From assembly GCA_030691735.1 (NCBI GenBank), contig JAUYDS010000079.1:905-64904 (forward strand): a stretch of 64,000 bases of DNA. Direction: 5' to 3'. Positions 2,269-57,577 of this stretch are shown one piece after another. A program made the position numbers and the translations under genes. The DNA comes from Candidatus Aminicenantes bacterium. GTDB lineage: Bacteria > Acidobacteriota > Aminicenantia > Aminicenantales > UBA4085. The notes under the pieces were generated by a model. It searched no databases and was not told the DNA's origin. It saw only the letters and a program-made list of their open reading frames with translations. Within the stretch, counting starts at the first letter, position 1, and every line of letters begins with the position of its first letter.

Positions 2269-5200
2269 TTGGGATCTCGAGGACTATTACGCGTCGCGGT
2301 GGCGCAAGCCTTGAAAGCGCTTTTCCGCTTGTTCGGCAGCCGCGCTCCGCATCCGGCTGAGAAGCCCCTGCGCGACGAACTGCTGAGCATCGAAAGACTG
2401 GAAGAGAGGGCGAGAGCGCTCGCGGCCGGGTTCACGCTCGACCCGAATCCCCGCCGCGCGGCGCGGAACGTCCTGCCGCGCTTCGAGGACAACGCCCGCG
2501 TCCTTCGCGAGGCATACATCACCATGGCCGACGATGTGCACCGGGGGGAGTTCGTCACCCCCGCGGCGGAATGGCTCCTCGACAACTTCCATCTCGTGGC
2601 GTCCGAGGTCCTCGCCGTGCGCCGGAACCTCCCGCCGGGCTACTATCGCGGGTTGCCCAAACTCGCTTTGCGGGAGCTCGCGGGCCACGCGCGCGTCTAT
2701 GCCCTGGCCGAAGAGATCATCCGCCACAGCGACAGCCGCTTGGACCGCCAGCAGCTGGTGCGCTTCATGAACAGCTTCCAGGCCGTGGCTCCGCTCACGA
2801 TCGGCGAGCTGTGGGCCTGGCCGAGCATGCTGAAGCTGGCCCTCATCGAGAACCTGAGGCGGCTCGCGGAGGAGACGCTCGAGGCCCGCGCGGCCGTCCT
2901 GGCGGCCGACGCCTACGTGGCGCGGGTCGACGACGCCGGGCAGGGGAAGCCGCCGCCGCTGCCAAAGCACCTCCACACCGGTTACGTCCTTCAGCTCCTC
3001 CAACGCCTGCGCGAGCACGGCCCTCGCCTTTCCGCCGTCCGCGCCGCCGTCGATACGCACCTCTCCGCCCAACACATGGCCTCTGAGGACGCGATTCGGA
3101 GCGAGCATCAGCGCCAAGCCGCGGCCCAGGTCTCGGTGGCCAACGTCATCACCAGCCTCCGTCTCTGCTCCGCGCTCGACTGGAGCCAGTCCTTCGAGGC
3201 CGTCAGCCTGGTCGAGCGCGTGTTGCAGCGCGACCCGGCCGGGGCTTATGGGAGCATGGACTTCCTGAGCCGCGACCGCTACCGCCAGGCCGTGGAGGAG
3301 CTATCCGGGCCCACCGGAGAGGCGCAGTTGGACGTGGCTCTGCGAGCTATTGAGCGCGCTCGCCGGGCCGTGGAGAGCGGACAGGCGGCGGATCGCGCCG
3401 CCCACGTCGGCCACTACCTCATCGGCAAGGGCCGCCCCGACCTCGAGACCGACGTCGCCTTTCGACCCCGCTTCGGCCGGCGGGTGCGGCGTTTCGTCTT
3501 CGCCCATGCGACCGCCGTCTACCTCGGATCGATCGGGCTCCTGACGGCCCTCCTGCTCGGCCTCGGGCTCGCCTACCTCCATGATCAGCGCTCATCGCTC
3601 GGGGTTCGGGCCGCAGCGGCGCTGCTCCTGTTGCTTCCGGCCAGCCAGGTGGCGATCGCCTTCGTGCAGCGCCTGGTTGCTCGTTGGGCACCGCCGCAAC
3701 GCCTCCCCCGCCTCGAATTCCCTGCGGGAATCCCCGACAACGCGCGAACCATGGTGGTCGTGCCCACGCTGCTGACGAGCGTGCCCGCCGTGGCCCGCCT
3801 TATCGAGCACATCGAGGTGCTGGCTCTCGGAAACCTCGATCCGCGCATCCACTTCGCGATCCTCAGCGACTTCGTCGACGCCCCCGCGCGCGAGATGCCC
3901 GAGGACGAGCCGATCCTCTCCGCCGCCCGGGCGGGGATCGATGCCCTGAACGCGCACTTCGGTGAAGGGTATACGGACCGGTTCTTCCTGTTCCATCGCC
4001 TGCGCCAGTGGAACCCGGGAGAGAGCGTCTGGATGGGCTGGGAGCGCAAGCGTGGAAAACTCGAGGAATGGAACCGCCTTCTACGCGGGGCCACGGACAC
4101 GAGCTTCTCCGTGCAGGTCGGCGACGTGGGGATCCTCCCCGGCGTGCGCTACTGCCTCACTCTCGACTCCGACACCCGCCTGCCGCGGGACGCCGCGAAG
4201 AAGCTCGTCGGCATCATCGCCCATCCTTTGAACCGCCCCCGCTTCGACGTCCGCCTCGGCCGCGTCACCGAGGGCTATGGGATCCTGCAGCCCCGGGTCA
4301 GCGTGACCATGGCCAGCGCCGCCGGCTCACTCTTCGCCCGCCTCTACGCCGGCCACACCGGAGTCGATCCCTACACCACCGCTGTTTCGGACACCTATCA
4401 GGACCTGTTCGGCGAGGGGATCTTCACGGGCAAGGGGCTCTACGACGTGGACGCCTTCATGGCCGCCCTCGAGGGGCGCGTGCCCGAGAACGCCCTTCTC
4501 TCGCATGACCTCTTCGAAGGGGTCTACGCCCGCACGGCGCTCGTCACGGACGTGGAGGTGGTGGACGACTATCCCGCGAGCGTCCTCGCCCATGCGCGGC
4601 GCCAGCACCGCTGGGTTCGGGGCGATTGGCAGATCCTCCGCTGGCTGTTCCCTTGGGTTCCAACCCGCTCCGGCCTGAAGCGCAACCGGCTGCCCCTCAT
4701 CTCGCGCTGGAAGATCTTCGACAACCTGAGGCGCAGCCTCGTCCCCCCCTCGACCGTCGCCCTGCTCCTTCTGGCCTGGGCGATCCTGCCGGGAAGCCCG
4801 GCGGTCTGGACGGCCGCCATCCTGGCCGCCATGGCCTTTCCCCTTTATCCGCTGCTCCTGGAGGCCGCCAGAGGTCCCAGGCCGCAACAGCCGTGGCTGG
4901 TGTTCCTCCGCGCCGCTTGGAAAGATGGGAAGACCGTGCTCGCTCAGGTATCGCTGCAGCTCACCTTCCTGGCCAGCCAGGCTTACGAGAGGACCCACGC
5001 GATCGTGCTGACCCTCGTCCGTCTCGCGGCGACCCAGCGCCGCCTGCTGGAGTGGGAGACGGCCGCGGCCAGCGAAACCCGAGGGGCCGGCAAGGCAAGG
5101 CGAGCGAGCGCACGGGTGTTTCTGGTAGAGATGATCGCGAGCCCGCTGGTCGCATCAAGCGGCCTCCTCCTGGTCTTGCTGGCGCGCCCGGGCGCGCTCC

Positions 5201-8200
5201 TCACGGCCATCCCGGTCCTGGCTTTGTGGGCGGCCGCGCCGCTCGTCGCATATGCGCTGAGCCGGCCCGTGGTACCGCGACGTGTCGAGCTGGGGGAAGA
5301 GGACCGCTGGTTCCTCCGTCTCATTGCCCGCAACACCTGGCGATACTTCGAGGCGTTCATGGGCCCCGAAGACCACGGCTTGCCCGCGGACAATTTCCAG
5401 GAGACGCCGGAACCCCGGATCTCCCACCGGACGTCGCCCACGAACATCGGCATGGGGCTGCTCGCCACCCTGGCCGCTCACGATCTCGGCTTCATCCGGA
5501 CGGACGAGCTTGCCTCCAGGATCGACGCCACGCTGACCACGATGGAAGGCCTCGAACACTTCGACGGTCACCTGCTCAACTGGTACGACACGCAGAGCCT
5601 GGCGCCGCTCCTGCCGGCTTACGTGTCCACCGTCGACAGCGGCAACCTCGCGGGCGCGCTCATGACCCTGGCGGAAGGGCTGCGCCAGGCGAGCCGGCAA
5701 CCGCCGCCCACGGCCGAGCCGGCAGTCAAGGGACGAGCCTTCGCGGCGGCAGTCAAGGGACGAGCCTTCGCGGCGGAAGTGGACCCCCGGGCAAAGCCCG
5801 GGGCACTCACCCGCGATGTATATACGCGGCTGAGTACGGCGGAAGCGGATCCCCAGACAAAGCCTGCCCTCATTCGCTTCGCGAATGAGGACTGCAAAGC
5901 CCGGGGCCCGGCCGCCGCCCCGGCCGCCGTCGATCTCTCCCAACGCCTCCTTGACCTGGCGGGCCGCGCCGCCCGGTTCGCGGACGGGATGAGCTTCCGG
6001 TTCCTCTACGACCCGCAGCGCCGGATCCTCTCCATCGGCTATCGTCTCGCCGACGCCGAGGGGCCGGGCCGGCTGGATGCTTCCTACTATGACCTCCTGG
6101 CCTCGGAATCGCGGCTGACGAGTTTCATCGGCATCGCCAAGGGCGACCTCCCCGAAACGCACTGGTTCCACCTGGGACGGCTCATCACCGCCGTGGACGG
6201 GACGCCCACCCTCCTGTCTTGGGGCGCCACCCTGTTCGAGTACTTGATGCCGCTCCTCTTCATGAAGAGCTTTCCGGAAACACTCCTCAACCAGACATGC
6301 CGGATGGCCGTGCGGCGGCAGATCGAGTACGCGACGGATCGCGCCGTGCCCTGGGGGATCTCGGAGTCCGCCTACAACCTCGTGGACCGGCACGACAACT
6401 ATCAGTACAAGGCCTTCGGCATCCCCGGCCTCGGCCTGAAGCGCGGCCTGGGCGACGAGCTGGTGGTCGCACCCTACGCCACCGCGCTCGCCGCCGGGCT
6501 CGAACCAACGAAGGCCGCCCGCAATCTGCGGCGCCTGGCCGGGGAAGGTCTCGAAGGCGCCTACGGCTACTACGAGGCCATCGATTACACGCATGGGAAG
6601 ACCGACGAGCCCGAAAGCGCCGGGAGAAGAGCGGGCCTCCCCCGGGGAACGGTGGTGCGTGCCTTCATGGCCCATCACCAGGGGATGACTCTCGTGTCCC
6701 TTGCCAACGTTCTCCTCGGCGATCCGATGGTGAAACGCTTTCATGCCGACCCGCGCGTGCAGGCCACGGAGCTGCTGTTGCAGGAGCAGGTACCGCGCCT
6801 GGTGCCCATCACCCAGCCGCGACCGGTCGAAGAGACCCGCGTGGCCGGCCCGCTGCCCGCGCTGGCCATTCGCCGCTTCTGGTCGCCGCATACGCTGTTC
6901 CCTCATGCGCAGTTCCTGTCCAACGGCAACTACACCGCCGTCGTGACGAATGCGGGAGGGGGCGCCAGCTTCTGTCGAGGCCGCGCGGTCACAAGGCACC
7001 GGGAGGATCCGACCCGCGACCCGGGGAGCCAGTTCCTCTATCTGCGCGACGTGCGGAGCGGCTCGGTGTGGTCAGCAACTTTCCACCCCACCGCCAAGGA
7101 GCCGGAGGAGTACCTGGTCTCGTTCCTCGCGGAGAAGGCGACCTTTCGCCGCCGGGACGACGACATCGCCGTCCAGCTCGACATCGCCGTCTCGAACCAG
7201 GACGACGTTGAAGTGCGGCGCCTGGCGGTGACCAACCACAGCGATCGTCCCCGCGAGATCGAGATCACGAGCTTTGCCGAGATCGTCCTCGCCCCGCCGG
7301 CCGACGACCTGGCCCACCCGGCCTTCGGCAAGCTGTTCGTCGAGACGGAATACCTTCCCGAGAGCGCCGCCCTCCTCTGCCATCGCCGAGCGCGCGCCCC
7401 GGACGAGCCCGGGGCGTGGGCGATTCACGTCCTGAGCCTCGAAGGACGGAAGCAGGGGCCGGTGGAATGGGAGACCGACCGGGCGCGCTTCCTGGGTCGC
7501 GGCCGCGGTCCCGAGAACCCCCAGGCCCTCGACGGACGCTCCCTGTCCGGCACGACCGGGTTCGTACTCGACCCCGTCGTCAGCCTCCGGCAGCGCATTC
7601 GCCTCGCGCCGGGCGGCTTCATTAAGCTGTCTTTCGCCACGGGTATGGCGTCCTCCCGGGAGACGGCCCTGGCTCTCGCCCGGCGCTACCACGAGCCGAG
7701 CGCCGCGGCGCGAACCTTCGCCCTCGCCTTCGCCCATACGCAGAGCGGCCTCCGCCACCTTGGCATCTCGAGCGAACAAGCCTTGCTCTTCGAACGCCTG
7801 GCCTCGCGGGTGCTGTATACCGACGGATCGCTCCGCGCGAGCCCGGAGCTTCTGGCCCGCAACACCCTCGGCCAGGAAGGCCTCTGGCCGCACGGCATCT
7901 CGGGCGATCTCCCCATCCTCCTGGTGCGGGTCGTCGAGGAGGACGACCTGCCGCTGGTGCGCCAGGTCCTGCAGGCGCAGGAGTACTGGCGGCTCAAGGG
8001 GTTGAACGCCGACGTCGTGATCCTCAACGAGCACCCCGTGAGCTATCTCGACGAGATGCACGCGCTGCTCGTGGCCCTCCTCGACAATGGACCCTGGAGG
8101 ACCTGGAAGCACCGGCCCGGCGGGGCTTACCTGCTCCGTGGGGACCGCATGGCTGAAGCCGAGCGCATCCTCCTCGCGGGCGTGGCGCGCGCCGTCCTGA

Positions 8201-10791
8201 GCGGCGAGCGGGGAGATCTGGCCAACCAACTCGACTGGCTCGATCCCGAGTGGCCGGAGCCGGAGGAATTCGCGCCCTCCGCGGAGTCGAGCTCAGCCGC
8301 CGCGTCGCCGGCGCAGGTGGCCGTGCCTCCGCTCGCCCTGGCCAACGGCATGGGCGGCTTCGCCGACGACGGGCGCGACTACGTGGTCGTCCTTGAAGCG
8401 GCCCAGGAGACGCCCCTGCCTTGGGCCAACGTCATCGCCAACCCCGCGTTCGGGACCGTGATCACGGCCTCAGGGTCGGCCTACACCTGGTCGGAGAACA
8501 GCCGCGAGAACCGCCTCACGCCTTTCGCGAACGACCCCGTGACCGACCCCACGGCCGAGGCGCTCTTCATCCGCGACGATGAGACCGGAGAGACCTGGTC
8601 CCCCACGCCGGGCCCGATGCCCCGCACGGGCGGGGACGGTCGCTTCGTGATTCGGCATTCCGCCGGGCTGACTCGTTTCGCTCGCGTAGCGCACGGCCTG
8701 CGCCAAGACCTCGACGTATTCGTAGACGCGAAGGACCCGGTGAAATTCTCACTGCTCACGCTTACGAACGAAAGCGGAAGGGCGCGTCGCCTGAGCGTGT
8801 TCGCCTACAACGAGTGGGTGCTGGGGCCGCCGCGGGCGGGCCAGAGCACGCACGTGGTGACCGAGCTCGACTCCGCGACCGGAGCGGTCCTGGCCAGGAA
8901 TCCCTACAACCAAGAGTTCGCGGGGCGCGTGGCTTTCGCCCACGCGAGCGAAGGGCTGCGCTCGGCAACGGGAGATCGCTTGTCGTTCCTGGGTCGCAAC
9001 GGTTCCCTGGCGCAACCGGCGGCGCTCCGCCGTGAAGCCCTGTCGGGCCGCTTCGGAGCGGGGCTCGATCCCTGCGCCGCGCTGCACGTCTCCGTCACTC
9101 TGATCCCGGGGGAGACGCGCCTCCTTGTGTTCCTGGTTGGGCAGGGGAAGGATGGGAATGAGGCCCGCGAGCTTCTGGGCCGGCATGGTCGCGTGGACGC
9201 CGCGGAAATCGCCCGGGAGGCCGTGCGCCGGAGCTGGGACGGCATCCTCGACACGGTCCAGGTCCGTACGCCGGACGACTCCTTCGATCTGTTGATGAAC
9301 CGCTGGCTGCTCTATCAGGACGTGAGCTGCCGGCTGTGGGCCCGGTCCGCTTACCACCAGCCGAGCGGCGCCTTCGGGTTCCGCGACCAGCTTCAGGACG
9401 TCATGGCTTTGACGCTGGCCCGGCCGGATCTCATCAGAGAACACCTGTTGCGAGCAGCCGGCCGGCAATTCCTCGAAGGCGACGTCCAGCACTGGTGGCA
9501 CGAGCGGAGCGGCCGGGGCACCCGCACGCGCTGTTCCGACGACCTGTTATGGCTTCCCCACGCGGTAGCGCACTACGTCCGGACGACGGGAGACGCGGGC
9601 GTCCTCGATGAGCCGGCGCCCTTCCTGGAGGCCCCGCCGCTCGCCCCGGAAACGCAGGACGCCTACGTTCAGCCCCGCATCTCGACCGAAAAGAGTCCGA
9701 TCTTCGAGCATTGCCTGCGCGCCATCGACCGTGGACTGACCGCGGGCGCCCACGGCCTTCCCCTTATGGGGAGCGGGGACTGGAACGACGGCATGAACCG
9801 CGTGGGACGGGAAGGGCGCGGGGAGAGCGCCTGGGTGGGCTTCTTCCTCCACGTGGTCCTGAGCGAGTTCGCGCCGCTCTGCGAAGCTCGGGGGGACCAG
9901 GCCCGGGCCGAGCGCTACCGCGGCGAGGCCCGCCGGCTCGGCAGCATGCTGGAGCAGACCTGGGACGGCGAGTGGTACCGGCGCGGCTACTACGACGACG
10001 GCAAGCCTCTAGGCTCGGCCCAGAACGACGAGTGCCGGATCGACGCCACCGTACAGTCCTGGGCGGCGCTCTCGGGCGCGGTTCCCGTGCGCTACGCGGA
10101 ACGCGCCATGGACGCTGTCCGCACCCACCTGGTTCGGCGCGGACCTCAGGTCGTACTGCTGCTCACCCCGCCCTTCGACGAATCCATCCAGGATCCGGGG
10201 TACATCAAGGGCTATCCGCCCGGCGTGCGTGAGAACGGCGGCCAATACACCCACGGGGCTCTCTGGGTCGTCATGGCCATGGCCCGGCTGGGCAGCGGCG
10301 ACGAGGCGGTGGAGCTCTTCCACATGCTCAATCCCGTCAACCATACCAGGACCGCGGCCGGTGTCGGGCGCTACATGGCCGAGCCCTACGTCATCGCCGG
10401 AGACGTCCACGCCGACCCGGCACACGCCGGGCGTGGCGGCTGGACGTGGTACACCGGCTCCGCGGGCTTGATGTACCGCGCGGGCCTCGAGAGCATCCTC
10501 GGGCTCCGGCGCCGGGGCTCGACCTTCGAGATGGACCCCTGCATCCCGTCATCCTGGCTTGACTACGCGATCGTCTGGCGCTTCGGCCGGACGCGCTACG
10601 AGATCGCGGTCTCGAACCCGGAGCGCCGCTGCCGAGGGATCGCGGAGGCGGAACTGGATGGCGCGCCGGTCGACCCCCGCTCCATCCCTCTCGCCGATGA
10701 CGGCGGCACGCACCAAGTCCGGCTGGTGCTGGGAGACCCAAAGCGGCCCGTCCCGCCCGTTGCCGACCCGGGTGCCATCGCTTCTGCTTGA
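2269..10791 (+). CDS. ndvB: Cyclic beta-1,2-glucan synthase (Cgs/NdvB/ChvB family; GT84 domain plus C-terminal GH94 phosphorylase-like domain); the start is a TTG
   Basis: The 2840-aa product has TM clusters around aa 400-470 and 830-1000. A GT-A signature DSDT (nt about 4165) and [10 protein letters not shown] flank the glycosyltransferase domain. The C-terminal region is GH94-like ([27 protein letters not shown]). The size and architecture match Brucella/Rhizobium Cgs. Confidence 0.8.
5723..5930 (+). repeat. Composite, nested copy of the GC-rich palindromic mini-element, inserted in-frame in cgs (copy A)
   Basis: It contains a 27-bp tandem duplication of CAGTCAAGGGACGAGCCTTCGCGGCGG, the core hairpin GACCCCCGGGCAAAGCCCGGGG, a second hairpin module and a repeated GCCCGGGGCCCGGCCGCC tail. 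It is translated as [28 protein letters not shown]. Confidence 0.8.
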
Positions 10792-18361: not shown

Positions 18362-18432
18362 TGGGAAGTCGTCCAACGGCAGGACTCATGACTCTGGATC
18401 ATGAAATCAAGGTTCGAATCCTTGCTTCCCAG
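18362..18432 (+). tRNA. tRNA-Gln (anticodon CTG), CCA not encoded
   Basis: The acceptor stem TGGGAAG/CTTCCCA is a perfect 7 bp. The D-stem is GTCC/GGAC, the anticodon stem CATGA/TCATG with loop CTCTGGA (U33, anticodon CUG), and the T-arm CAAGG-TTCGAAT-CCTTG. The discriminator is G. Confidence 0.8.
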
Positions 18433-20245: not shown

Positions 20246-20320
20246 GACGTGGCTAATCCCCCCTTCTCCCCCCTTTAGTAAAGGGGGGGAAGCGAGCCCC
20301 CCTTTTCTAAAGGGGGGATT
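20246..20320. terminator. GC-rich tandem-hairpin repeat element (copy 1) acting as a bidirectional terminator between convergent genes
   Basis: GACGTGGCTAATCCCCCCTTCTCCCCCCTTTAGTAAAGGGGGGGAAGCGAGCCCCCCTTTTCTAAAGGGGGGATT shares its first 33 nt with the copy at 23289. It abuts the stop of the purF-like gene. Confidence 0.65.
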
Positions 20321-21725
20321 AATCCGGCTCGACGCCGTCCCAGCAATAGGTGCAAAGCCGCTCTTTAGGCAGGCCGATGGCCGCCACGAGATCCTCGAGG
20401 TGCTGGTACTTGAGGGTCGTCAGGTTCAATCTCTGCCGGATCCTTTCTTCCATGGCCTTGTACTTGTCCGTGTCTTCTCTGGTGTAATCCGTCAGGTCGG
20501 CCGGGTATTCGCCTTCGATCTCGCGGATGGCCCGCCGGGCGGCCAGGTCCATCTCCGACCGGGAGACCGAAAAATTCAGGAACTTGCAGCCGAAGACGAG
20601 CGGCGGGCAGGCCGGCCGCATATGGACCTCCAGGGCTCCGCAATCGTAGAGCCGCTGGATCGTGTCCTGGAGCTGGGTTCCCCGGACGATGGAATCCTCG
20701 CAGAAGAGGAACTTCTTGCCCTTGATCAGGTCGCCGATGGGGATGAGCTTCATCCGGGCGACGAGGTCCCGGACGCCCTGGCTCTGGGGCATGAAGCTGC
20801 GGGCCCACGTGGGCGTATATTTGACGAACGGCCGCTTGAACGGGACGCCGGATTCGGCCGCGTAGCCTAGGCCGTGACCGACACCCGAGTCCGGGATCCC
20901 GGCCACGAAATCGATCGGGACCGGGTTGTGCTTGGCCAGGAACGCGCCGCAGCGGTTCCGCGCGTCCTCGACGTTGATGCCTTCGTAGCTCGAGGCCGGG
21001 TAGCCGTAGTAGACCCAGAGGAAGGCGCAGATCTGAAGCTTGTCGCCCGGCGCCTGTTTCTGCTCGCACCCCTCGGGGGAAATGAAGAGGATCTCTCCGG
21101 GTCCCAGATATTTTTCGACCTCGAAGCCGAGGTTGGGGAAGGCGCACGTCTCCGACGTCACGGCGAAATTGCCCGCTTTCTTACCGAGGACGATCGGTGT
21201 CCGGCCCCATTTATCGCGGCCGGCGTACAGGCCCTTTTCGGTCAGGATGAGGACGGAGCAGGAGCCCTCGATGGAATCTTGGAGGTTCCGGATCCCCGCT
21301 TCGAAGCTTTCCTCCTGGTCGATGAGCGTCGCGGCCAGCTCGGTCGGATTGATCCCGCCGGCGCCGATCTCGGTGAAGTGCAGACCTCTCTTCCGGAAAA
21401 GGTCCTCGGACAGCGCCGCGGCGTTCTTGATGGCGCCGACGGTGACGATGGCGTAATCCCCGAGATGGGAACGGATGAGAAGGGGTTGGTCGTCGAAATC
21501 GCTGATCACCCCGATGCCGGCCCAGGAATGCATCCGGTCGAGGTCCGGATCGAACTTGGAGCGGAACTGGGCGTTCTCGATGTTGTGGATGACGCGGACA
21601 AAACCGTCCTTTTGGCGGACGGCCAGCCCGCCCCGCTTCGTCCCGAGATGGGAATGGTAGTCCGTGCCGTAGAACAGGTCGGCGATACAATCGTCCCAGG
21701 AAGCGATCCCGAAAAATCCTCCCAT
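20319..21725 (-). CDS. Amidophosphoribosyltransferase (PurF) homologue lacking the N-terminal catalytic Cys (the N-terminus is MGGFFGIAS); [4Fe-4S]-type C-terminus
   Basis: The product is collinear with PurF. The PRPP loop FLFCEDSIVRGTQL matches (cf. LLVDDSIVRGTT), and the C-terminus carries CTYCW. An ATG start with a GAGGGGGA RBS is present. Cys1 is replaced by Gly. Confidence 0.75.
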   Translation of the reverse strand: MGGFFGIASWDDCIADLFYGTDYHSHLGTKRGGLAVRQKDGFVRVIHNIENAQFRSKFDPDLDRMHSWAGIGVISDFDDQPLLIRSHLGDYAIVTVGAIKNAAALSEDLFRKRGLHFTEIGAGGINPTELAATLIDQEESFEAGIRNLQDSIEGSCSVLILTEKGLYAGRDKWGRTPIVLGKKAGNFAVTSETCAFPNLGFEVEKYLGPGEILFISPEGCEQKQAPGDKLQICAFLWVYYGYPASSYEGINVEDARNRCGAFLAKHNPVPIDFVAGIPDSGVGHGLGYAAESGVPFKRPFVKYTPTWARSFMPQSQGVRDLVARMKLIPIGDLIKGKKFLFCEDSIVRGTQLQDTIQRLYDCGALEVHMRPACPPLVFGCKFLNFSVSRSEMDLAARRAIREIEGEYPADLTDYTREDTDKYKAMEERIRQRLNLTTLKYQHLEDLVAAIGLPKERLCTYCWDGVEPD

Positions 21726-21747
21726 ATATCCCCCTCGTCGTTCGGGC

Positions 21748-23178
21748 CTAACGGCTCTCGGGCTCCGCGTGAACGAGCACCCGGACTAGGCCCGGGATCC
21801 TCTCTTTCAAGCGTTCCTCGATGCGGGTAGACACATCATGAACTTGGATGATCGATAGCTGCTTCTCGAAGTGACAGTGCAGTGAGACCGAATAATTGTC
21901 GGCGTGGCGCCGGACCATGACGTTGTGGCAGCGGGAAGCGCCGGCGACCTTATTGGTGAGCTTTTTGACCTTGTCCACGAGGGCCGACTCCCGGGACGTC
22001 ACATCGACGCCTTCGCCGATGCCCGTGCCGCGGGATTCGATGTGGGTGTTGATCTGGGTGATCTCGGGCATGTCGTCCCTGAGGTCTTTTTCGATATGCG
22101 TCGCCAAGTCGTGGGCTTGCTGCAGGGACAGATGGTCGTCCACCTCGAGGTGGAGGTCGACCAAGACTCGATCGCGGTCCTCGTGCAGGCTGATGTTGTG
22201 GACGCTCATCTGGTCCCGGTAGGCGATGGCCCGGATCCGCTTGGCCTTGGTCTCGCGCTCGACCTCGCGTGGGTCGGTGTGAATGACGACGTCGGCGCCG
22301 GGAGCGACGCTCTGCACGCAGGCCTCCACCGATTCGGCGATGGCGTGGGTCCGTTCGAAGGACAGGTTGCGGTCCACGTCCACGGCCATGTCCACGAAGA
22401 CGCTCGGGCCGGACCGCCGGAGCCGGACCTGGCCGACGCTCAACACGCCTTCGATGGCACCGGCGGCCTCGGAGATCTTTTGGGCCAGGCCGTCCGGGGC
22501 CCGGTCGAGGAGGACGTCCACGGTCCGTTTGCCGAGCTTATAGCTTATAAACAGGACGATGAAGGCGACGCCCAGGGCGGAGACCGCGTCCGCCTTTTGC
22601 AAAAGCTCCGCCTGGCGGTGAAAGACGTGTTTACCGAGCCAGACGAGGAGCAGACCGCCGATGACCACGCTCGAGCTCCACACGTCCGTCGAAAAGTGGA
22701 GGGCATCGGCTTCCAAGGCTTGGCTGTGATGCTTCCGGGCGGCCCGGTAGAGCATCCGGGACCGGCTCACGTCGACGCCGATGGAGATGACCATGACCAA
22801 GAACGCCCAGAGGCTGGGATCGATCTCGATGGTCTGAAAGCCGATGCGGCGGACCGCCTCGTAGATGATCCAGGCGCAGGTGACGAAGAGCAGGACCGTC
22901 TCGACCAGGGCGGAGAAGTTCTCGATCTTACCGTGGCCGTAGGTGTGATCATGATCGGCGGGCTTATCCGAGACGCGCACGGCCAGGAAAGTGATGAAAG
23001 CGGCGACCAGGTCCAGGCCGGAGTGGGCCGCTTCGGCCAGGATGCCCAAGCTTCCCGTGAGGATCCCGACGACCAGCTTCATGGAGGTGAGGAAGAGGGC
23101 GGCGAAGACGGAATTGCCGGCGGCGGCTTTCTTGTCATGCGCGGCGGACAAACTCTGCGGGGACGCTTCAGATGTCAT
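21748..23178 (-). CDS. Cation diffusion facilitator (CDF) family metal efflux transporter with duplicated cytoplasmic C-terminal domains
   Basis: The product has 6 TM helices with the metal-site motifs HSGLDLV and HDHTYGHGK, followed by two ZT-dimer-like domains. Confidence 0.8.
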   Translation of the reverse strand: MTSEASPQSLSAAHDKKAAAGNSVFAALFLTSMKLVVGILTGSLGILAEAAHSGLDLVAAFITFLAVRVSDKPADHDHTYGHGKIENFSALVETVLLFVTCAWIIYEAVRRIGFQTIEIDPSLWAFLVMVISIGVDVSRSRMLYRAARKHHSQALEADALHFSTDVWSSSVVIGGLLLVWLGKHVFHRQAELLQKADAVSALGVAFIVLFISYKLGKRTVDVLLDRAPDGLAQKISEAAGAIEGVLSVGQVRLRRSGPSVFVDMAVDVDRNLSFERTHAIAESVEACVQSVAPGADVVIHTDPREVERETKAKRIRAIAYRDQMSVHNISLHEDRDRVLVDLHLEVDDHLSLQQAHDLATHIEKDLRDDMPEITQINTHIESRGTGIGEGVDVTSRESALVDKVKKLTNKVAGASRCHNVMVRRHADNYSVSLHCHFEKQLSIIQVHDVSTRIEERLKERIPGLVRVLVHAEPESR

Positions 23179-23439: not shown

Positions 23440-25038
23440 CTATTTCAACTTGACGATGTGGACCGTTCCGGCGCCGTACTTCTTGGCCAGTCCATCGATC
23501 GTCCGGCCTCCGAACTTGGCGGCCATGGCGTCGATCGTCGGCTGGTTCGGGAGCATGTTGTTGGCCCCGGCCTTGCATTCCTCGATGTTGCCGGCGACCA
23601 TGATGATCATCTTGTCCGGCTGCAGCCACTTCTGGGCGACCCGCTTGAGGTCGGCGACCGTCACTTTCTCGTACTTGGCCAGATAGGCGTCGTAGTAATT
23701 CATCGGACGGCCGGTGAATTCTAGGTTGGCGAAGTTCTGGATGATGGAGCCGACCCCCGAGAACATGGACGGAAACGCGTTGACCCGGGCGCTCTTGGCC
23801 ATTTTGAGATCGGCTTCGCTGACGTCCCCGTTATGCATTCCCTCGATGAGGTCCAGCATCAGTTGGGAGGCGAAGACGACCGTCGAGTTCTTGGTCTGAC
23901 AGGAGGCCGTGAACGTCCCGGGGTAGAGTATCCCGGCTCCGCCGCCTCCTCCACCGCCGCGCGGACCGCCGCCCCCGCCGCCGCTGAAGCTGGAACTGGT
24001 GGAGTAGGCCAGCCCGTTATCGGTCCGCACGACCTTGGTGATGCGCGAGGAGAACGAGCCGCCGCCGAGGATGTAGTTCATCAAGTCGACCGCGGCGTAG
24101 TCGGGGTCGTCCACCATCAGGCCGAGATGCCCGATGCGGATGATCCCCTGGTTCGGGATGACCTCGGGTTGGACCATGTAGACGCCCGCCTTGGACGCCT
24201 GTTGGACCTTTGGAATGGGCGGCACGGCTTTCTCCGCCTTGGGCCATTTCCCGACCGTGGCTTCCAGCTTCTTCATCATCTCCGCTTTTTTGAAATCGCC
24301 CGAGACCACCAGGATGGCGTTATTGGCCCCCCAATACTTCTTGTGCCAGGCGATGAGGTCGGCCCGGGTGATGCCGGTGATCGTCGCTTCGGTCGTTTCC
24401 TGGGTGATCGGCGAGTTTTCACCGTAGATCAGATCGCTGTAAACGCGGCCGGCGACCTCGGAGACGTTTTTATTGCGATTCCGGATCGCGGGCAGGGCCT
24501 GGTCCTTCTCGCGGCGGAGCTTGTCGTCGGGGAAGGCCGGGTTCGTCAGGATGTCCATCCAGATCTTGAGGCCCTCGTCGAGATACTTGATGTTGATGGA
24601 CAGGTTGCGGGCCGTGACCGTCCCCGCCAGGAAGTCCATCCGCTCGTTGATCTGCTCGCCGGTCATCGTCGTGCTGCCGCCCGAGCGCATGATCGAGCCG
24701 GCGAAGCCGTCCACGCCCAGCTTGTCCTTGGGCTCGAGGAAGGGCCCGGTCCGGACGAGCAGCGATGCGGAAAACCAGGGGATCTCGTGATCCTCGGCGA
24801 TATAGACCACCAGTCCGTTCGAGAGCTTCGTCCGGAATTCGGACGCTTTGGGCACCTTGAAGTTGAGCGGAGGGTAGGTGAATTGTTCCGGGCGAGGTCC
24901 CTTGGGCGTTTGTCCGCTTTGAACGGCGGCTTGCGCCGGGTTGGTCCCGGCGGCCTGCGCGTCGACCGCGAAAACGAAAACGAGCAGGAGCAGGACCGGG
25001 ATGAACCATGAACTGAAATGTCGTCTGATCATTGTCAT
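23440..25038 (-). CDS. M16 family peptidase-like protein, likely non-catalytic partner subunit, with a signal peptide and a poly-Gly insertion
   Basis: The product has the M16 fold but no HxxEH motif. It contains the low-complexity stretch SGGGGGGPRGGGGGGGAG and an N-terminal signal sequence. Confidence 0.7.
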   Translation of the reverse strand: MTMIRRHFSSWFIPVLLLLVFVFAVDAQAAGTNPAQAAVQSGQTPKGPRPEQFTYPPLNFKVPKASEFRTKLSNGLVVYIAEDHEIPWFSASLLVRTGPFLEPKDKLGVDGFAGSIMRSGGSTTMTGEQINERMDFLAGTVTARNLSINIKYLDEGLKIWMDILTNPAFPDDKLRREKDQALPAIRNRNKNVSEVAGRVYSDLIYGENSPITQETTEATITGITRADLIAWHKKYWGANNAILVVSGDFKKAEMMKKLEATVGKWPKAEKAVPPIPKVQQASKAGVYMVQPEVIPNQGIIRIGHLGLMVDDPDYAAVDLMNYILGGGSFSSRITKVVRTDNGLAYSTSSSFSGGGGGGPRGGGGGGGAGILYPGTFTASCQTKNSTVVFASQLMLDLIEGMHNGDVSEADLKMAKSARVNAFPSMFSGVGSIIQNFANLEFTGRPMNYYDAYLAKYEKVTVADLKRVAQKWLQPDKMIIMVAGNIEECKAGANNMLPNQPTIDAMAAKFGGRTIDGLAKKYGAGTVHIVKLK

Positions 25039-25065: not shown

Positions 25066-26625
25066 CTACTTTTCCCGCTCCAATACGCCGGTGACGCAGT
25101 TGTCCTTGGTCAAATATTTCTTGGCGACCCGCATCAGGTCGGCCGGCGTCACGGCCAGGCGCTGCTTGTATTGGTCGTCGAGATGCTGCCAGCGGTAGGC
25201 CACTTCCATCGAGGCCAACTGGACGGCGATCCCCGTCCCGGCCAGGCTTTGGAGATAGCGGGCTTCGACCGAGTTCTTCACTCTCTGGAGCAGCGTTTCA
25301 TCGCAGAGCGTGTTCTTCGCCTCTTCGATGTAGCCCCAAAGCTCTTTCTCGAGTTGATCGAGAGGAACGACGGGGGCGTTCTTGATCTCCTTGGCCGTGG
25401 CGCTGACCTGGAACTCGCCGTCATACTCGGAATTGGAAGCCCGGACCATGACGTTGGTCGCGTGCTCGTTCTTCAGGACCAGGTCAAGGTACATCTTGCC
25501 CGTCCTCGCACTCATGACCTGGCTCAGAATAGACAGGGGGCCCAGGTCGTCGTGCCACAGCGGCGGGATATGGAACAGGATCTGGACGCTTGGGTTCGTC
25601 GCGGCCCGGCCGAGGACGCGCTTCTCGACATAGGGCGCCTTGAAATCCGGCCCGTTGACCTTCCGGTAATATTCAGGCGAAGGCTCCTCGGTGCGCACGC
25701 GCGGCGCGGGGCCTTTGGACGGGATCGCCCCGAAGTATTTATTGATTAAGGCCATGGTCGGCTCGACATCGATGTCTCCGGCCAGAACCATGACCGCGTT
25801 ATCGGGGCGATAATACTGGCTGCGATAGTCCATCATCTCTTGTTTGGTGATGCGGCTGACGTCGGACATCCAGCCCAGGACTTCCCAGTGGTAGGGGCTG
25901 GCGGCGTAGAACGTGGCGTTAAGCTGCTCGCTGAAGAAGAAGCCGGGTCTGTTCTCGCTCATCCGGCGCTCTTCGACGATGACGTCGCGCTCCGAATAAA
26001 ACTCGCGGAAGATGGGGTTGACCATCCGGTCCGCCTCGAGGGCGAAATAGAGCTCGAGCTTGTTCTTCGGGAGCGTGACGTAGTATTGGGTCATCTCCTT
26101 CCCCGTCGAGGCGTTCAGGCCGGTCCCGCCGGCCTCCTGATAGGCGCCCCAGATCTCCTCGCTGACGATCGTTTCGGCCTTCTCCTTCGTCAGCAGGTCC
26201 GAGGCCTGCTTCTTGAGGGCCATGATCTTGGCCTCGTCGCGGCCCTTGATCTTGGACTCCTCGGCCACGATCTGCTCTTCCAGCGCGTCGATCTGCCGGT
26301 TGTACTCGCTGTCCTTCTCGAGAGTGCCCGGCTTGATGCCCATCGTGTAGGTGCCTTTGAACATCATGTGCTCGTGGAAGTGGGAGATGCCGGTGATGCC
26401 CGGCCGCTCGTTCACCGCACCGACCCGGTAGGCCAGGATGCAGCGGACCGTGGGCGTGTCCGCCCGCTTGACCATCAAGACCTTCAGCCCGTTGGGCAGG
26501 GTTCGTTCGATGACCTGCTTCGTCAGACTGAGCTCTTGGGCCGCGAGAGGTGCCAGGCCGACAAACAATAAGAGTGGGATCAAAATGATTATACGTGCGA
26601 ATTTGCGAGAAATCATAGGCTTCAC
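25066..26625 (-). CDS. M16 family zinc metallopeptidase (pitrilysin/insulinase-like), secreted
   Basis: The product has the inverted zinc-binding motif HFHEHMMFKGT and a signal peptide. It lies in tandem with the inactive paralogue. Confidence 0.8.
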   Translation of the reverse strand: MKPMISRKFARIIILIPLLLFVGLAPLAAQELSLTKQVIERTLPNGLKVLMVKRADTPTVRCILAYRVGAVNERPGITGISHFHEHMMFKGTYTMGIKPGTLEKDSEYNRQIDALEEQIVAEESKIKGRDEAKIMALKKQASDLLTKEKAETIVSEEIWGAYQEAGGTGLNASTGKEMTQYYVTLPKNKLELYFALEADRMVNPIFREFYSERDVIVEERRMSENRPGFFFSEQLNATFYAASPYHWEVLGWMSDVSRITKQEMMDYRSQYYRPDNAVMVLAGDIDVEPTMALINKYFGAIPSKGPAPRVRTEEPSPEYYRKVNGPDFKAPYVEKRVLGRAATNPSVQILFHIPPLWHDDLGPLSILSQVMSARTGKMYLDLVLKNEHATNVMVRASNSEYDGEFQVSATAKEIKNAPVVPLDQLEKELWGYIEEAKNTLCDETLLQRVKNSVEARYLQSLAGTGIAVQLASMEVAYRWQHLDDQYKQRLAVTPADLMRVAKKYLTKDNCVTGVLEREK

Positions 26626-47468: not shown

Positions 47469-48371
47469 TTGTCGCTCGACCGGGAGGCCGACATCGCATT
47501 CCACGCCCCCCAGACTCTGGCCGAAGCGCTCCGGCTCTTGGACGAGCTTGAGAACGCCCGGATCTTGGCCGGCGGGACAGACCTTCTGGTCGAGCTTCGA
47601 GAGGGCCGGGCAGAGGCCCGTAACCTCATCTCGATCCAAGACGTTGACGAGCTTAAAGGGATCAGAGAAAAGGGCGGCCGGGTCGAGATCGGGGCCTTGG
47701 CCACTCCCCGGGAGATAGCCGGCAACTCCCTGATCAATCGGCATAACCCGGCTTTGGCCCAGGCGGCCGGCGGGATGGCCTCTTCCCATATCCGGTCGAT
47801 GGCCACGATCGGAGGAAACATCGTCAGCGCGGTTCCCTCCGCGGACCTCCCTCCAGCCTTGATAGCGGCCGAGGCCGCTGTCCGGCTCGTGAGCTCGGCC
47901 GGAATCCGCGAAGTATCTCTTTCGGACTTTTTCACGAGTCCGAGGTGCACTGTCTGCGGAAGCGCGGAGATCCTTGCCGCGGCGATTTTCCCTCCGCCAC
48001 CGCCCGGGACAGGAATCTCCTGGGAGAGGTTTTCACTCCGCGAGTCCAACGCCCTGGCCGTCGCCGCCGTCGCGGCCTGCCTGACCATCCGGAAAGGAAC
48101 GATCGCCCGGGCCGCGGTCGTACTCGGAGCCGTGGCCCCGACCCCTCTGGCGGCGGTTAAAACCGCGGAATTTCTCTCCGGCCAAAAGCCTTCTACCGGC
48201 CTTTTTGCCGAAGCCGCTTCCCTGGCCGGGGAGGAATGCCGGCCGATTTCCGACATCCGAGGATCGGCCTGGTTTCGGAAGGAGATCGTCACGGTTCTGA
48301 CCCGGCGGGCCCTGGCCGGAGCCTTGGCTCGAGCCCAGGTGAACCAATCGGGAAGGAACGGCCCGGCTTGA
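47469..48371 (+). CDS. FAD-binding (CoxM/HcrB-like) subunit of a xanthine-dehydrogenase-family molybdenum hydroxylase; TTG start
   Basis: The FAD_binding_5 motifs AGGTDLLVEL and GGNIVSAVPSADL, plus the CO dehydrogenase flavoprotein C-domain, are present. Confidence 0.75.
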   Translation: MSLDREADIAFHAPQTLAEALRLLDELENARILAGGTDLLVELREGRAEARNLISIQDVDELKGIREKGGRVEIGALATPREIAGNSLINRHNPALAQAAGGMASSHIRSMATIGGNIVSAVPSADLPPALIAAEAAVRLVSSAGIREVSLSDFFTSPRCTVCGSAEILAAAIFPPPPPGTGISWERFSLRESNALAVAAVAACLTIRKGTIARAAVVLGAVAPTPLAAVKTAEFLSGQKPSTGLFAEAASLAGEECRPISDIRGSAWFRKEIVTVLTRRALAGALARAQVNQSGRNGPA

Positions 48372-54169: not shown

Positions 54170-55480
54170 ATGAAGCCGACCTATAAAACCGAGCCGCTCC
54201 GATGCTGGGCCAAGGCCAAGGAGATCCGCCAAGATTACTATAAGAATTACGCCCTGGCCCATGAGAAGGGCGGCCTGCGCTGGGCCGGGGGAGCGTGGTC
54301 GTTCGACGCCATCCCCGCAGGCCTCGGCGATGACGTCTACCCCCTGACGGGCGAGCCGTACGCGGCCGCGATCGCCTGGGACAAGGAATTCGCCCTCCAG
54401 TGCCACGAGGCGGTCGAAAAAGCCGGATACGCCCGCGATCTATGCTCCTACATGCGCAACTACTGGGGGTCGATCATCCTCAATAAATATGTCTTCGGCG
54501 GAGAATTTCCGAAGCCGGACTTCATCTGGCAAGATCATATCTGTTGCTCTCATGCCAAATGGTATCAAGTGGTCCGGGATCTGGAAGGGAAGGATATCCC
54601 GATGTACTGCCTCGACGTCAGCGTCGGCCCTTACGAGGAGCTCACGGACAACCGGCTCGAATACGTCGTCGGCCAGATGCACGACGGGATCGCCTGGCTG
54701 GAGAAGGTGACCGGCCGGCGCTTCGATGACGAAAAGCTCATCCGGGCCGTGTCCAACCATTGCCGCTCCACCGCCCTCTGGGCCGAGGTCTGCGCTCTGA
54801 ACAAAGCCATCCCCGCTCCGCTGGACGAGAAGACGATGTATTCGCTCTATGTCCTCGGAACCCTGCAGAAGAGCAGCGGCATCGTAGCGGACTTTACCGA
54901 GGAGCTCCGGGACGAAGTCAAGGATCGGGTCGCCAGAGGGATCGCCGCGGTTCCCAACGAACGGTGCCGGGTCATGTCTGACACCCAGCCTCCCTGGGCC
55001 TTCTTGAAGATCTTCCGATACCTGGAGCAATACGGCTGCGTCTCGGTCGGCTCCCTCTATACGTTCGGCCTGATCGGGCAATGGGAGGTCAAGGCCGACG
55101 GGACCTGGGGCGCCCGGACGACGCCGGAGCAGCAGGGAATCGTGATCCGGGACCGGGATCAGGCTCTTCGAATCCTGGCCGACTGGGAATTGAAAAAACC
55201 GGAATGGCAGCATTTTTATTCTCCCCAAGCCAAAAGCGAGATGATGATCCGGATCGCCAAGGAATGGACGCTCGACGGCGTCCTCCTCCATTACAACCGG
55301 GGCTGCGAAGGCTTGAGCCTGGGAATCGCCGAAAACCGGCTGGCCATGATCAAGGCGGGCTACCCGGTCATCGTTTTCGAGGGCAATATGGGGGACGAGA
55401 GGGAGTTCGACGAAATCCAGACTCTGAAACGGATCGACGCTTTTATGGAAAGCCTGGGGTTCGAAAAGGATTCCCGATGA
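54170..55480 (+). CDS. Class I benzoyl-CoA reductase family subunit (BzdO/BcrB-like)
   Basis: It belongs to the HgdA/BcrB family (436 aa) with conserved Cys residues. It directly follows the BzdN-like gene. Confidence 0.7.
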
Positions 55481-57289: not shown

Positions 57290-57577
57290 ATGCTGGCCCA
57301 CTACGGATATAAGGACGGCTCGGGAGAGTATTTCATCGTCGTCGACACGGACAAGTGCGACGGATGCGGCCGCTGCGTCTCCGCCTGTCCCTACGGAGTT
57401 TTCGAAATCGGCGAGGACGAAAACGACCCCTTCCGCGAGACGGTCGTGGTCAAAGTCTCCGAATCCCACCGTAAGAAAATCAAATACAGCTGCGCGCCCT
57501 GCAAACCCGTCTCCGGAAAAAAATCCCTGCCCTGCCTCGAAAGCTGTGCTCCGGGCGCGATCGGTCACTCCTGGTGA
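57290..57577 (+). CDS. 2x[4Fe-4S] ferredoxin of the benzoyl-CoA reductase type (Fdx/BzdM-like)
   Basis: The 95-aa product has the Cys patterns CDGCGRCVSACP and the atypical CAPC-x10-C-x3-C. Confidence 0.75.
   Translation: MLAHYGYKDGSGEYFIVVDTDKCDGCGRCVSACPYGVFEIGEDENDPFRETVVVKVSESHRKKIKYSCAPCKPVSGKKSLPCLESCAPGAIGHSW

What the first reader, a model, noticed from the sequence alone, without database searches (positions are those of the whole stretch)
20319..21725. PurF homologue without the N-terminal cysteine nucleophile
The protein is collinear with glutamine PRPP amidotransferase, including the PRPP-binding loop and a [4Fe-4S]-type C-terminal CTYCW motif. However, it starts MGGFFGIAS instead of the obligatory M-C-G(I/V). 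The ATG has a good RBS and an in-frame stop lies shortly upstream, so a Cys-containing N-terminus is not simply missed. Without Cys1 the Ntn glutaminase domain cannot hydrolyse glutamine. The protein may use ammonia directly, or act as a regulatory or other-function paralogue.
Basis: partly seen in the sequence, partly recalled or inferred. Interest (0 to 1): 0.55.

Follow-up and report, generated by a model that had tools for sequence, protein, structure and literature searches.

The report
Cysteine-less PurF paralogue, probably ammonia-dependent
The gene is real and belongs to a large, conserved but biochemically untested family of PurF-like enzymes in anaerobes; these have lost every residue needed to use glutamine but keep the PRPP-reacting half intact, so they most likely start purine synthesis directly from ammonia.

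Summary
ORF 20319-21725 (-) encodes a 468-aa two-domain PurF homologue that starts MGGFFG, with Gly where Cys1 should be. It is not a sequencing or start-site error. The identical protein occurs in two independent assemblies. Of the 120 closest homologues (72-95% identity), 112 start MGGF.

Cys1 is not the only loss. Arg26, the Arg73-Tyr74 loop, Asn101 and Asp127 are also gone. The PRPP loop, the catalytic flexible loop and all four [4Fe-4S] cysteines are conserved, and the N-domain is as constrained as in canonical PurF.

In relatives the gene fills the purF slot of complete pur operons, follows purL, or lies next to a canonical Cys-bearing purF (7 of 80 loci).

The best reading is an ammonia-dependent phosphoribosylamine synthase. 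This is inferred, not shown. Brown et al. (2011) described Cys-less 'PurF′' in Crenarchaeota and proposed the same untested idea, so the kind is known. I found no biochemical study of it.

Two points remain open: whether this genome also has a canonical purF, and whether this clade is the same as crenarchaeal PurF′.

The parts
20319..21725 (-). Complete CDS of the Cys-less PurF-like protein (468 aa)
   Evidence: ORF list. PDB, NCBIfam and Pfam matches to PurF. 120 homologues at 72-95% identity.
21730..21736 (-). Shine-Dalgarno-like GAGGGGG, 4 nt upstream of the ATG
   Evidence: Read directly from the sequence.
21786..21788 (-). In-frame TAG 21 codons upstream of the ATG; no start codon in between, so no hidden Cys-bearing N-terminus
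   Evidence: Upstream translation, coordinates, ORF definition.
21708..21725 (-). N-terminus MGGFFG; Gly2 takes the place of the Cys1 nucleophile
   Evidence: Alignment to 1ao0. 112 of 120 homologues start MGGF. G/S/A/T at this position across the wider clade.
21036..21725 (-). Ntn-fold N-terminal domain (about residues 1-230), glutaminase-dead but conserved
   Evidence: Pfam GATase_7, 34.9 bits. Model and Foldseek match. N-domain/PRT-domain identity ratio 0.83, against 0.77 in canonical PurF.
21639..21671 (-). Clade-specific motif YGTDYHSHLGT (residues 19-29), replacing the canonical YGLxxLQHRGQ; Arg26 becomes Leu; Y23 and H26 are at least 90% conserved
21498..21518 (-). GIGVISD (residues 70-76): site of the 7-residue deletion that removes the Arg73-Tyr74 glutamine loop
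   Evidence: Alignments.
21423..21443 (-). TVGAIKN (residues 95-101): the canonical HNGN oxyanion motif, with Asn replaced by Val
21336..21353 (-). INPTEL (residues 125-130): the canonical SDTE, with the Asp that binds the glutamine alpha-amino group replaced (no Asp remains here)
20745..20822 (-). Catalytic flexible loop KYTPTWARSFMPQSQGVRDLVARMKL (residues 302-327); K302, R309, S310, Q316, R319 and K326 are at least 90% conserved in the clade
20673..20711 (-). PRPP-binding loop FLFCEDSIVRGTQ (residues 339-351)
21027..21029 (-). Cys233, equivalent to the B. subtilis [4Fe-4S] ligand Cys236
   Evidence: Ligand numbering is from established knowledge of 1GPH/1AO0.
20586..20588 (-). Cys380, equivalent to the B. 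subtilis [4Fe-4S] ligand Cys382
20340..20354 (-). C-terminal CTYCW (Cys458 and Cys461, equivalent to ligands Cys437 and Cys440)
20451..20531 (-). Insertion of about 27 residues (399-425), present in most aligned Cys-less members (it appears in their consensus) and absent from B. subtilis PurF and from the Cys-bearing intermediates
   Evidence: Alignment; predicted helical.
21748..23178 (-). Upstream cation-diffusion-facilitator gene, 22 nt away on the same strand with no terminator-like site between; probably co-transcribed. The adjacency is not conserved outside near-identical contigs.

Best explanation
The gene encodes a glutamine-independent PurF, a 'PurF′-type' enzyme. [quoted passage not shown] It is kept as a scaffold and as the mouth of the former ammonia channel, so free NH3/NH4+ from the cell is the nitrogen source.

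Shown here: loss of every glutamine-site residue; conservation of the PRPP site, flexible loop and Fe-S ligands; purifying selection on both domains; association with pur genes in relatives.

Inferred: that the product is phosphoribosylamine and the nucleophile is ammonia; that the remodelled, conserved pocket (G2, D22-Y23-H24-x-H26) serves ammonium capture or entry; and that the benefit is saving the ATP spent on glutamine in ammonium-rich, energy-poor anoxic habitats.
For: (1) The fold and collinearity are those of PurF: 1ao0 E 1.8e-49 by sequence and TM 0.74 by model.
(2) The PRPP loop (E/D)DSIVRGTQ, the flexible-loop residues K302, R309, S310, Q316, R319 and K326, and the four Fe-S cysteines are at least 90% conserved across 54 diverse Cys-less members.
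(3) In gut Clostridia-like contigs the orthologue (52-58% identity) sits in purE-purC-[X]-purM-purN-purO-purH-purD-purL. No other PurF lies in that operon, and X overlaps purC by 1 nt. In Muribaculaceae it directly follows purL. purB lies directly upstream in 3 loci and carB is adjacent in 9.
(4) E. coli PurF with Cys1 replaced loses glutamine-dependent activity but keeps ammonia-dependent activity (Mei & Zalkin 1989, as cited in PMC3261824). The chemistry is therefore known to be possible.
(5) The N-domain is as constrained relative to the PRT domain as in canonical PurF (ratio 0.83 against 0.77), so it is not decaying.
(6) The named source lineages are ones I know as mostly anaerobic: Aminicenantes, Desulfobacterales, Bacteroidales, Clostridia, Spirochaetota, Planctomycetota, Asgard archaea. 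That they are anaerobic is background knowledge, not tested here.
Against: No member has been assayed, and I found no paper on it.

In the window the gene is not near any pur gene. Its neighbours are a CDF transporter and an HTH protein.

In 7 of 80 loci a canonical Cys-bearing purF lies within 5 kb, twice immediately upstream in the same operon. There the protein is an addition, not a replacement, which also fits a partner-subunit role.

The strong conservation of a new motif in the old glutamine pocket could mean a new ligand or donor rather than simple NH3 entry.

Distant members occur in Patescibacteria and DPANN archaea, which are generally thought to lack de novo purine synthesis.

Whether this genome has a canonical purF elsewhere could not be tested.
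Confidence: 0.6

Rival explanations
1. It is a non-autonomous partner of canonical PurF. It assembles into mixed tetramers with the Cys-bearing enzyme and tunes its activity or feedback regulation, rather than supplying flux by itself.
For: A canonical purF lies within 5 kb in 7 of 80 loci. The rough chance expectation is 0.2-0.3 loci for a single-copy gene in a 3-5 Mb genome (my estimate). Examples are the tandem purF-X pairs in L075 and L046 and the convergent pairs in three Asgard contigs. Crenarchaeal PurF and PurF′ are also neighbours. PurF is a homotetramer (established knowledge).
Against: A pure regulator would not need an intact PRPP loop, flexible loop and Fe-S site, all of which are at least 90% conserved. 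The pur operons in L009-L012 contain only the Cys-less copy. Most loci (73 of 80) have no canonical purF nearby.
Confidence: 0.13
2. The remodelled N-domain has acquired a new chemistry or ligand. It might release NH3 from a donor other than glutamine using the conserved Asp/Tyr/His residues, or with Ser/Thr at position 2 in some members. Alternatively the enzyme couples PRPP to a nucleophile other than ammonia.
For: The old glutamine pocket is rebuilt, not degraded: Y23 and H26 are at least 90% conserved clade-wide, and D22, H24, G28 and T29 are invariant among close relatives. Thirteen of 54 diverse members have Ser and three have Thr after Met; both are possible Ntn nucleophiles. Distant members occur in CPR and DPANN lineages. 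An Amidohydro_3 gene lies directly upstream in two Aminicenantes-like contigs.
Against: Position 2 varies among G, S, A and T, which argues against a catalytic role for that residue; the window protein has Gly. No neighbour is conserved beyond pur, carB and purF genes. The operon slot in L009-L012 needs a phosphoribosylamine-forming enzyme.
Confidence: 0.17
3. It is an artefact or relic: a sequencing or start-site error hiding a normal M-C-G N-terminus, or a decaying pseudogene copy of purF.
For: None beyond the initial oddity.
Against: The identical protein occurs in two independent assemblies. Of 120 homologues, 112 start MGGF. All 80 species-level loci are Cys-less. There is an upstream in-frame stop and no alternative start. 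Changing Gly GGA to a Cys codon needs two substitutions (read from the sequence). The reading frame is intact and both domains are conserved.
Confidence: 0.01

Closest known systems
B. subtilis-type [4Fe-4S] glutamine PRPP amidotransferase (PurF; PDB 1AO0/1GPH; TIGR01134)
   Same: Same two-domain architecture and fold (TM 0.74). Same PRPP loop, flexible loop and four Fe-S cysteine positions. Relatives occupy the purF position in pur operons.
   Different: No Cys1. Arg26 becomes Leu. The Arg73-Tyr74 loop is deleted (7 residues). The oxyanion Asn becomes Val and Asp127 is lost. There is a C-terminal insertion of about 27 residues. The loop ends in TQ instead of TT. TIGR01134 scores 176 bits against a cut-off of 350.
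PurF′ of Crenarchaeota (Brown, Hoopes, White & Sarisky 2011, Biol Direct 6:63)
   Same: A PurF-like protein that lacks the N-terminal Cys (Ala or Val there). It is encoded near purF and other purine genes and was proposed, but not tested, to be an ammonia-dependent PRPP aminotransferase. The Asgard, Clostridia and Anaerolineae relatives found here show the same purF/Cys-less pairing.
   Different: That description covers Crenarchaeota only. The clade here is mainly bacterial and has Gly/Ser at the position. Some members are the only purF-like gene in a pur operon. Common ancestry with crenarchaeal PurF′ was not tested because no sequences were available to me.
E. coli PurF Cys1 mutants (Mei & Zalkin 1989)
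   Same: Loss of the Cys nucleophile abolishes glutamine use but leaves NH3-dependent phosphoribosylamine synthesis (cited in PMC3261824). This is the functional model for the present protein.
   Different: Those are laboratory point mutants with an otherwise intact glutamine site. Here the whole site has been rebuilt by evolution and is conserved in its new form.
Other Ntn-amidotransferase homologues with a dead N-domain (beta-lactam synthetase and carbapenam synthetase, derived from AsnB), and ammonia-dependent counterparts of glutamine enzymes (AsnA, single-domain NadE)
   Same: The same evolutionary pattern: the synthetase half stays active while the glutaminase half is inactivated or dispensed with. 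This is from my background knowledge and was not tested here.
   Different: They are different enzyme families and reactions. The resemblance is a lead, not evidence.

Membership tests
Glutamine PRPP amidotransferase PurF (EC 2.4.2.14, TIGR01134) | N-terminal Cys nucleophile, exposed by removal of Met or a propeptide | tested here: not met
   Gly2 aligns with Cys1 of 1ao0. There is no upstream start. The feature is conserved across the family.
Glutamine PRPP amidotransferase PurF (EC 2.4.2.14, TIGR01134) | Glutamine-binding and oxyanion residues (Arg26, Arg73/Tyr74 loop, Asn101-Gly102, Asp127; E. coli numbering) | tested here: not met
   HRGQ becomes HLGT, the RY loop is deleted, NG becomes VG, and the Asp is absent.
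Glutamine PRPP amidotransferase PurF (EC 2.4.2.14, TIGR01134) | Score above the curated equivalog cut-off | tested here: not met
   TIGR01134 scores 176.2 bits against a cut-off of 350.
Glutamine PRPP amidotransferase PurF (EC 2.4.2.14, TIGR01134) | Type-I PRTase PRPP loop and PurF flexible loop | tested here: met
   FLFCEDSIVRGTQ and K302...R309-S-F...Q316...R319...K326 are present and at least 90% conserved in the clade.
Glutamine PRPP amidotransferase PurF (EC 2.4.2.14, TIGR01134) | Two-domain Ntn + PRTase fold | tested here: met
   AlphaFold model pLDDT 78, pTM 0.76. The top 17 Foldseek PDB hits are all PurF chains, TM 0.68-0.74.
Glutamine PRPP amidotransferase PurF (EC 2.4.2.14, TIGR01134) | Four Cys ligands of the [4Fe-4S] cluster (B. 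subtilis-type subfamily) | tested here: met
   C233, C380, C458 and C461 align with or correspond to C236, C382, C437 and C440 and are at least 90% conserved. Actual presence of the cluster is not testable here.
Glutamine PRPP amidotransferase PurF (EC 2.4.2.14, TIGR01134) | Forms 5-phosphoribosylamine from PRPP | not testable with these tools
   Needs an enzyme assay or complementation. Supported only indirectly by the operon slot in relatives.
PurF′ (Cys-less PurF paralogues, Brown et al. 2011) | PurF-like protein lacking the N-terminal Cys | tested here: met
PurF′ (Cys-less PurF paralogues, Brown et al. 2011) | Encoded close to purF and other purine-biosynthesis genes | tested here: inconclusive
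   Not so in the window: no pur gene was found among the neighbouring or larger ORFs annotated, and there is no second PurF homologue in 64 kb. It holds in relatives: pur operons L009-L012, L046 and L075; purL in L006-L008; canonical purF within 5 kb in 7 of 80 loci.
PurF′ (Cys-less PurF paralogues, Brown et al. 2011) | Coexists with a canonical Cys-bearing PurF in the same genome | not testable with these tools
PurF′ (Cys-less PurF paralogues, Brown et al. 2011) | Falls in the same clade as the crenarchaeal PurF′ proteins | not tested
   No crenarchaeal PurF′ sequence could be obtained. The paper's supplements hold locus tags and trees only.
Class II (Ntn) glutamine amidotransferase domain (Pfam GATase_7, PF13537) | Domain match above the gathering score | tested here: met
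   34.9 bits against a cut-off of 25, residues 76-196. This shows the fold and homology only; the catalytic nucleophile is absent.

The most novel reading that the evidence does not exclude
In many anaerobes, including abundant gut Bacteroidales and Clostridia, the first step of purine synthesis does not depend on glutamine. It is carried out by this Cys-less enzyme. Its rebuilt N-domain pocket (Asp22-Tyr23-His24-x-His26 behind an N-terminal Gly) is a dedicated ammonium-capture and deprotonation site feeding the old NH3 channel, or the site for a new nitrogen donor. In some lineages this enzyme has fully replaced canonical PurF.
Probability: 0.3. Interest if true: 0.65.

Novelty: new member of a known kind. 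Interest (0 to 1): 0.45.

Why it matters
Textbook PurF is defined by its Cys1 glutaminase. If this family is an ammonia-dependent phosphoribosylamine synthase, a large share of anaerobic microbes would begin purine synthesis without spending glutamine, and so without the ATP used to make it. The motif scan found at least 600 loci in one-genome-per-species contigs, including gut Bacteroidales and Lachnospiraceae and Asgard archaea. That would change nitrogen and energy budgets in metabolic models.

Automatic annotation is also affected. These proteins are currently all labelled 'amidophosphoribosyltransferase' although they score far below the PurF equivalog cut-off.

The family also gives a route to test the 15-year-old PurF′ hypothesis. 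The motif hits include a cultured isolate, Parabacteroides acidifaciens 426-9, and assemblies labelled Victivallis vadensis and Anaerobutyricum, genera that have cultured members.

Tried and rejected
- **Sequencing or start-site error:** rejected.
- **Second PurF homologue in the 64-kb window:** none found by tblastn with canonical-like and family queries.
- **Riboswitch or other RNA element upstream:** Rfam finds only a tRNA at 18362-18432. No promoter-like site, and no terminator-like site between the CDF gene and this gene.
- **Conserved partner glutaminase or amidase next to the gene:** clustering of neighbours in 86 loci gave nothing conserved beyond carB (9 loci), pur genes and canonical purF. 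The Amidohydro_3 neighbour in L001 and L002 did not recur among the 86 loci clustered. The CDF neighbour occurs only in near-identical contigs.
- **Cys13 as a substitute nucleophile:** it is common in the clade but replaced by G, A, S or V in several close homologues. It lies at the far end of strand 1 in the model. Rejected.
- **Literature:** nine full-text searches found no characterisation of a Cys-less PurF. The only relevant text is the PurF′ and Mlab_0150 passage of PMC3261824.
- **thiC-purF operon of C. ragsdalei (PMC6505512):** noted as a lead, but I could not determine whether that purF is Cys-less.
- **Naming the organisms of distant members:** cluster look-ups gave few names.
- **Genome-wide co-occurrence with canonical purF:** could not be computed, because the genome collection allows one scan and loci hold only about 20 kb.
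- **Orthology with crenarchaeal PurF′:** could not be tested.
- **Three-dimensional inspection of the remodelled pocket:** not possible, because model coordinates are not exposed.
Full report
**Observation**

The window holds an ORF at 20319-21725 on the minus strand. It encodes 468 aa beginning MGGFFGIAS. A GAGGGGG ribosome-binding sequence lies 4 nt before the ATG. An in-frame TAG (21786-21788) lies 21 codons upstream, and the ATG is the first possible start after it.

The upstream gene is a cation-diffusion-facilitator transporter. It ends 22 nt before the ATG on the same strand.

**Is it PurF-like?**

Yes.
- Pfam sees only the Ntn amidotransferase domain (GATase_7, 34.9 bits).
- NCBIfam's PurF equivalog TIGR01134 matches residues 72-415 at 176 bits, far below its 350-bit cut-off.
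- The best solved relative is B. subtilis PurF (1ao0, E 1.8e-49), collinear over residues 4-414.
- An AlphaFold model built on 35 family sequences has pLDDT 78 and pTM 0.76. Its 17 best PDB matches are all PurF chains, led by 1ao0 at TM 0.74.

**What is lost and what is kept**

In the alignments Gly2 takes the place of Cys1. The rest of the glutamine site is gone too:
- HRGQ (Arg26) is HLGT.
- The Arg73-Tyr74 loop is deleted (7 residues).
- The HNGN oxyanion motif is TVGA.
- The Asp of SDTE is absent (INPTEL).

The phosphoribosyltransferase half is intact:
- the GIPDSG motif;
- the flexible loop KYTPTWARSFMPQSQGVRDLVARMKL;
- the PRPP loop FLFCEDSIVRGTQ;
- cysteines 233, 380, 458 and 461, at the positions of the B. 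subtilis [4Fe-4S] ligands 236, 382, 437 and 440.

**Not an error, and not rare**

- The identical protein is called on two independent Logan assemblies, one of them with the same CDF neighbour.
- The 120 best database homologues are 72-95% identical, and 112 start MGGF.
- An exhaustive HMMER search of 1.84 billion cluster representatives gave 869 hits at E<=1e-30.
- The full-length hits down to about 40% identity start MGG, MSG, MTG or MAG and share a YGTDYHSHLGT-like motif. Cys-bearing relatives appear only at about 34-39% identity.
- The best 80 loci come from Aminicenantes, Planctomycetota, Spirochaetota, Desulfobacterales, Acidobacteriota, Gemmatimonadota, Verrucomicrobiota, Kiritimatiellaeota, Lentisphaerae, Bacteroidales, Clostridia, Anaerolineae and Asgard archaea. 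None encodes Cys at the N-terminus.
- The closest species-level genome is an Aminicenantes MAG (about 76% identity).

**Shape of the clade**

A neighbour-joining tree with a residue table separates three groups:
- Canonical PurFs: C1, HRGQ, RY, NG, D.
- Three Cys-bearing intermediates. They already lack the RY loop, the oxyanion Asn and Asp127.
- The Cys-less clade: G/S/A/T at position 2, and HLGT.

Within 54 diverse Cys-less members, mean identity is 0.39 in the N-domain and 0.48 in the PRT domain. The ratio of 0.83 is no lower than in canonical PurFs (0.77). The N-domain is therefore under constraint, and its old glutamine pocket has been rebuilt around conserved residues. Y23 and H26 are at least 90% conserved clade-wide. 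D22, H24, G28 and T29 are invariant among close relatives.

**Genomic context**

In the window there is no pur gene near the ORF and no second PurF homologue. Close Aminicenantes-like relatives are likewise solitary or in unrelated company. More distant orthologues are informative:
- In human-gut Clostridia-like contigs the gene sits in purE-purC-[X]-purM-purN-purO-purH-purD-purL. This includes a 90%-identity cluster with 3,295 members. The gene overlaps purC by one base, and no other PurF lies in the operon.
- In Muribaculaceae it directly follows the large purL.
- Among the 80 species loci, seven have a canonical Cys-bearing purF within 5 kb. These include purE-purC-purF-[X]-purM... (L075), purL-purC-purE-purF-[X] (L046), and convergent pairs in three Asgard contigs.
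- carB is adjacent in nine loci, and purB lies directly upstream in three.
- My rough chance expectation for a given single-copy gene lying within 5 kb is 0.2-0.3 of 80 loci, so the link to purF and purine genes is real.

**Interpretation**

The intact PRPP chemistry, the operon slot and the dead glutaminase together point to a glutamine-independent phosphoribosylamine synthase that uses free ammonia. The chemistry has precedent. E. coli PurF Cys1 mutants lose glutamine-dependent activity but keep ammonia-dependent activity (Mei & Zalkin 1989, as cited in PMC3261824).

Two steps are my inference. The first is that the rebuilt pocket helps capture or admit NH4+/NH3. The second is that the advantage is ATP saving in ammonium-rich anoxic habitats. 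I put 0.6 on this reading.

The tandem and convergent pairs with canonical purF keep a partner-subunit role alive (0.13). The conserved new pocket, the Ser/Thr variants and the presence of distant members in Patescibacteria and DPANN archaea keep a new donor or new nucleophile alive (0.17).

**Comparison with what is known**

The protein fails the defining tests for glutamine-dependent PurF: the nucleophile, the glutamine site and the equivalog score. It should not be filed as EC 2.4.2.14 in the strict sense, although it very probably works like the PRTase half of PurF.

The closest published concept is PurF′. Brown et al. (2011) found that each crenarchaeon has a second PurF-like protein lacking the N-terminal Cys (Ala or Val), encoded near purF and other purine genes. 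They proposed, without testing, an ammonia-dependent PRPP aminotransferase. They also flagged Mlab_0150, which has Ser at the position.

I found no later characterisation in nine full-text searches. Whether the bacterial/Asgard clade is the same lineage as crenarchaeal PurF′ could not be tested.

**Verdict**

It is an instance of a known but uncharacterised kind, not a new category. What is added here:
- the breadth of the family;
- the complete remodelling of the glutamine site, and its conservation in the new form;
- operons in which it is the only purF-like gene;
- its frequent pairing with canonical purF.

Interest is moderate (0.45). A specialist would not be astonished, but the family makes a long-standing hypothesis directly testable in cultivable gut bacteria.

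Noticed in passing
window 21748-23178 (-): The cation-diffusion-facilitator protein immediately upstream is long (476 aa) and has three matches to the ZT_dimer domain instead of one. It is probably co-transcribed with the PurF-like gene (22-nt gap), but the pairing occurs only in near-identical contigs.
   Followed up: partly
window 23440-25038 (-): An M16-family peptidase-like protein with only the inactive-domain Pfam match. It carries a glycine-rich insert (GGGGGGPRGGGGGGGAG). A second M16 gene follows at 25066-26625.
   Followed up: no
window 2269-10791 (+): A 2840-aa ORF with GH94 supersandwich and catalytic domains plus a glucoamylase-like domain, resembling a cyclic beta-1,2-glucan synthase or phosphorylase giant protein.
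   Followed up: no
window 48236-51226 (+), 54170-55480 (+), 57574-60198 (+): A xanthine-dehydrogenase-family molybdoenzyme with fused 2Fe-2S domains, a 2-hydroxyglutaryl-CoA dehydratase D-component homologue, and a multi-cluster Fe-S flavoprotein. Together these fit an anaerobic fermentative lifestyle.
   Followed up: no
P0208, P0244, P0261 (metagenomic proteins, 34-39% identical to the window protein): Cys-bearing PurF-like proteins that keep Cys1 and HRGQ but already lack the Arg73-Tyr74 loop, the oxyanion Asn and Asp127. They share the TQ loop ending and the CxxC(W/F) tail of the Cys-less clade. They may be evolutionary intermediates, and their ability to use glutamine is doubtful.
   Followed up: partly
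L093 4091-5398 (Patescibacteria), L094 10001-11539 (Nanoarchaeota-like), P0263 (Woesearchaeota): Distant Cys-less PurF-like genes in reduced-genome lineages usually considered unable to make purines de novo. No pur genes lie within 10 kb. This is unexplained if the family only makes phosphoribosylamine.
   Followed up: partly
L019, L021, L024, L030, L033, L034, L047, L050, L082: The carbamoyl-phosphate synthase large subunit gene (carB) lies next to the Cys-less PurF gene in nine loci, mostly Desulfobacterales and relatives plus Victivallis. This may be a nucleotide-biosynthesis cluster or something more specific about ammonia use.
   Followed up: no
L001 8250-9986, L002 8214-9980: In two Aminicenantes-like contigs a 578-588-aa Amidohydro_3 protein is encoded directly upstream on the same strand, 15-20 nt away. 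It is a conceivable local ammonia source, but the pairing did not recur among the other loci examined.
   Followed up: partly
window 18362-18432 (+): A single tRNA gene, the only Rfam match in the 64-kb window.
   Followed up: no
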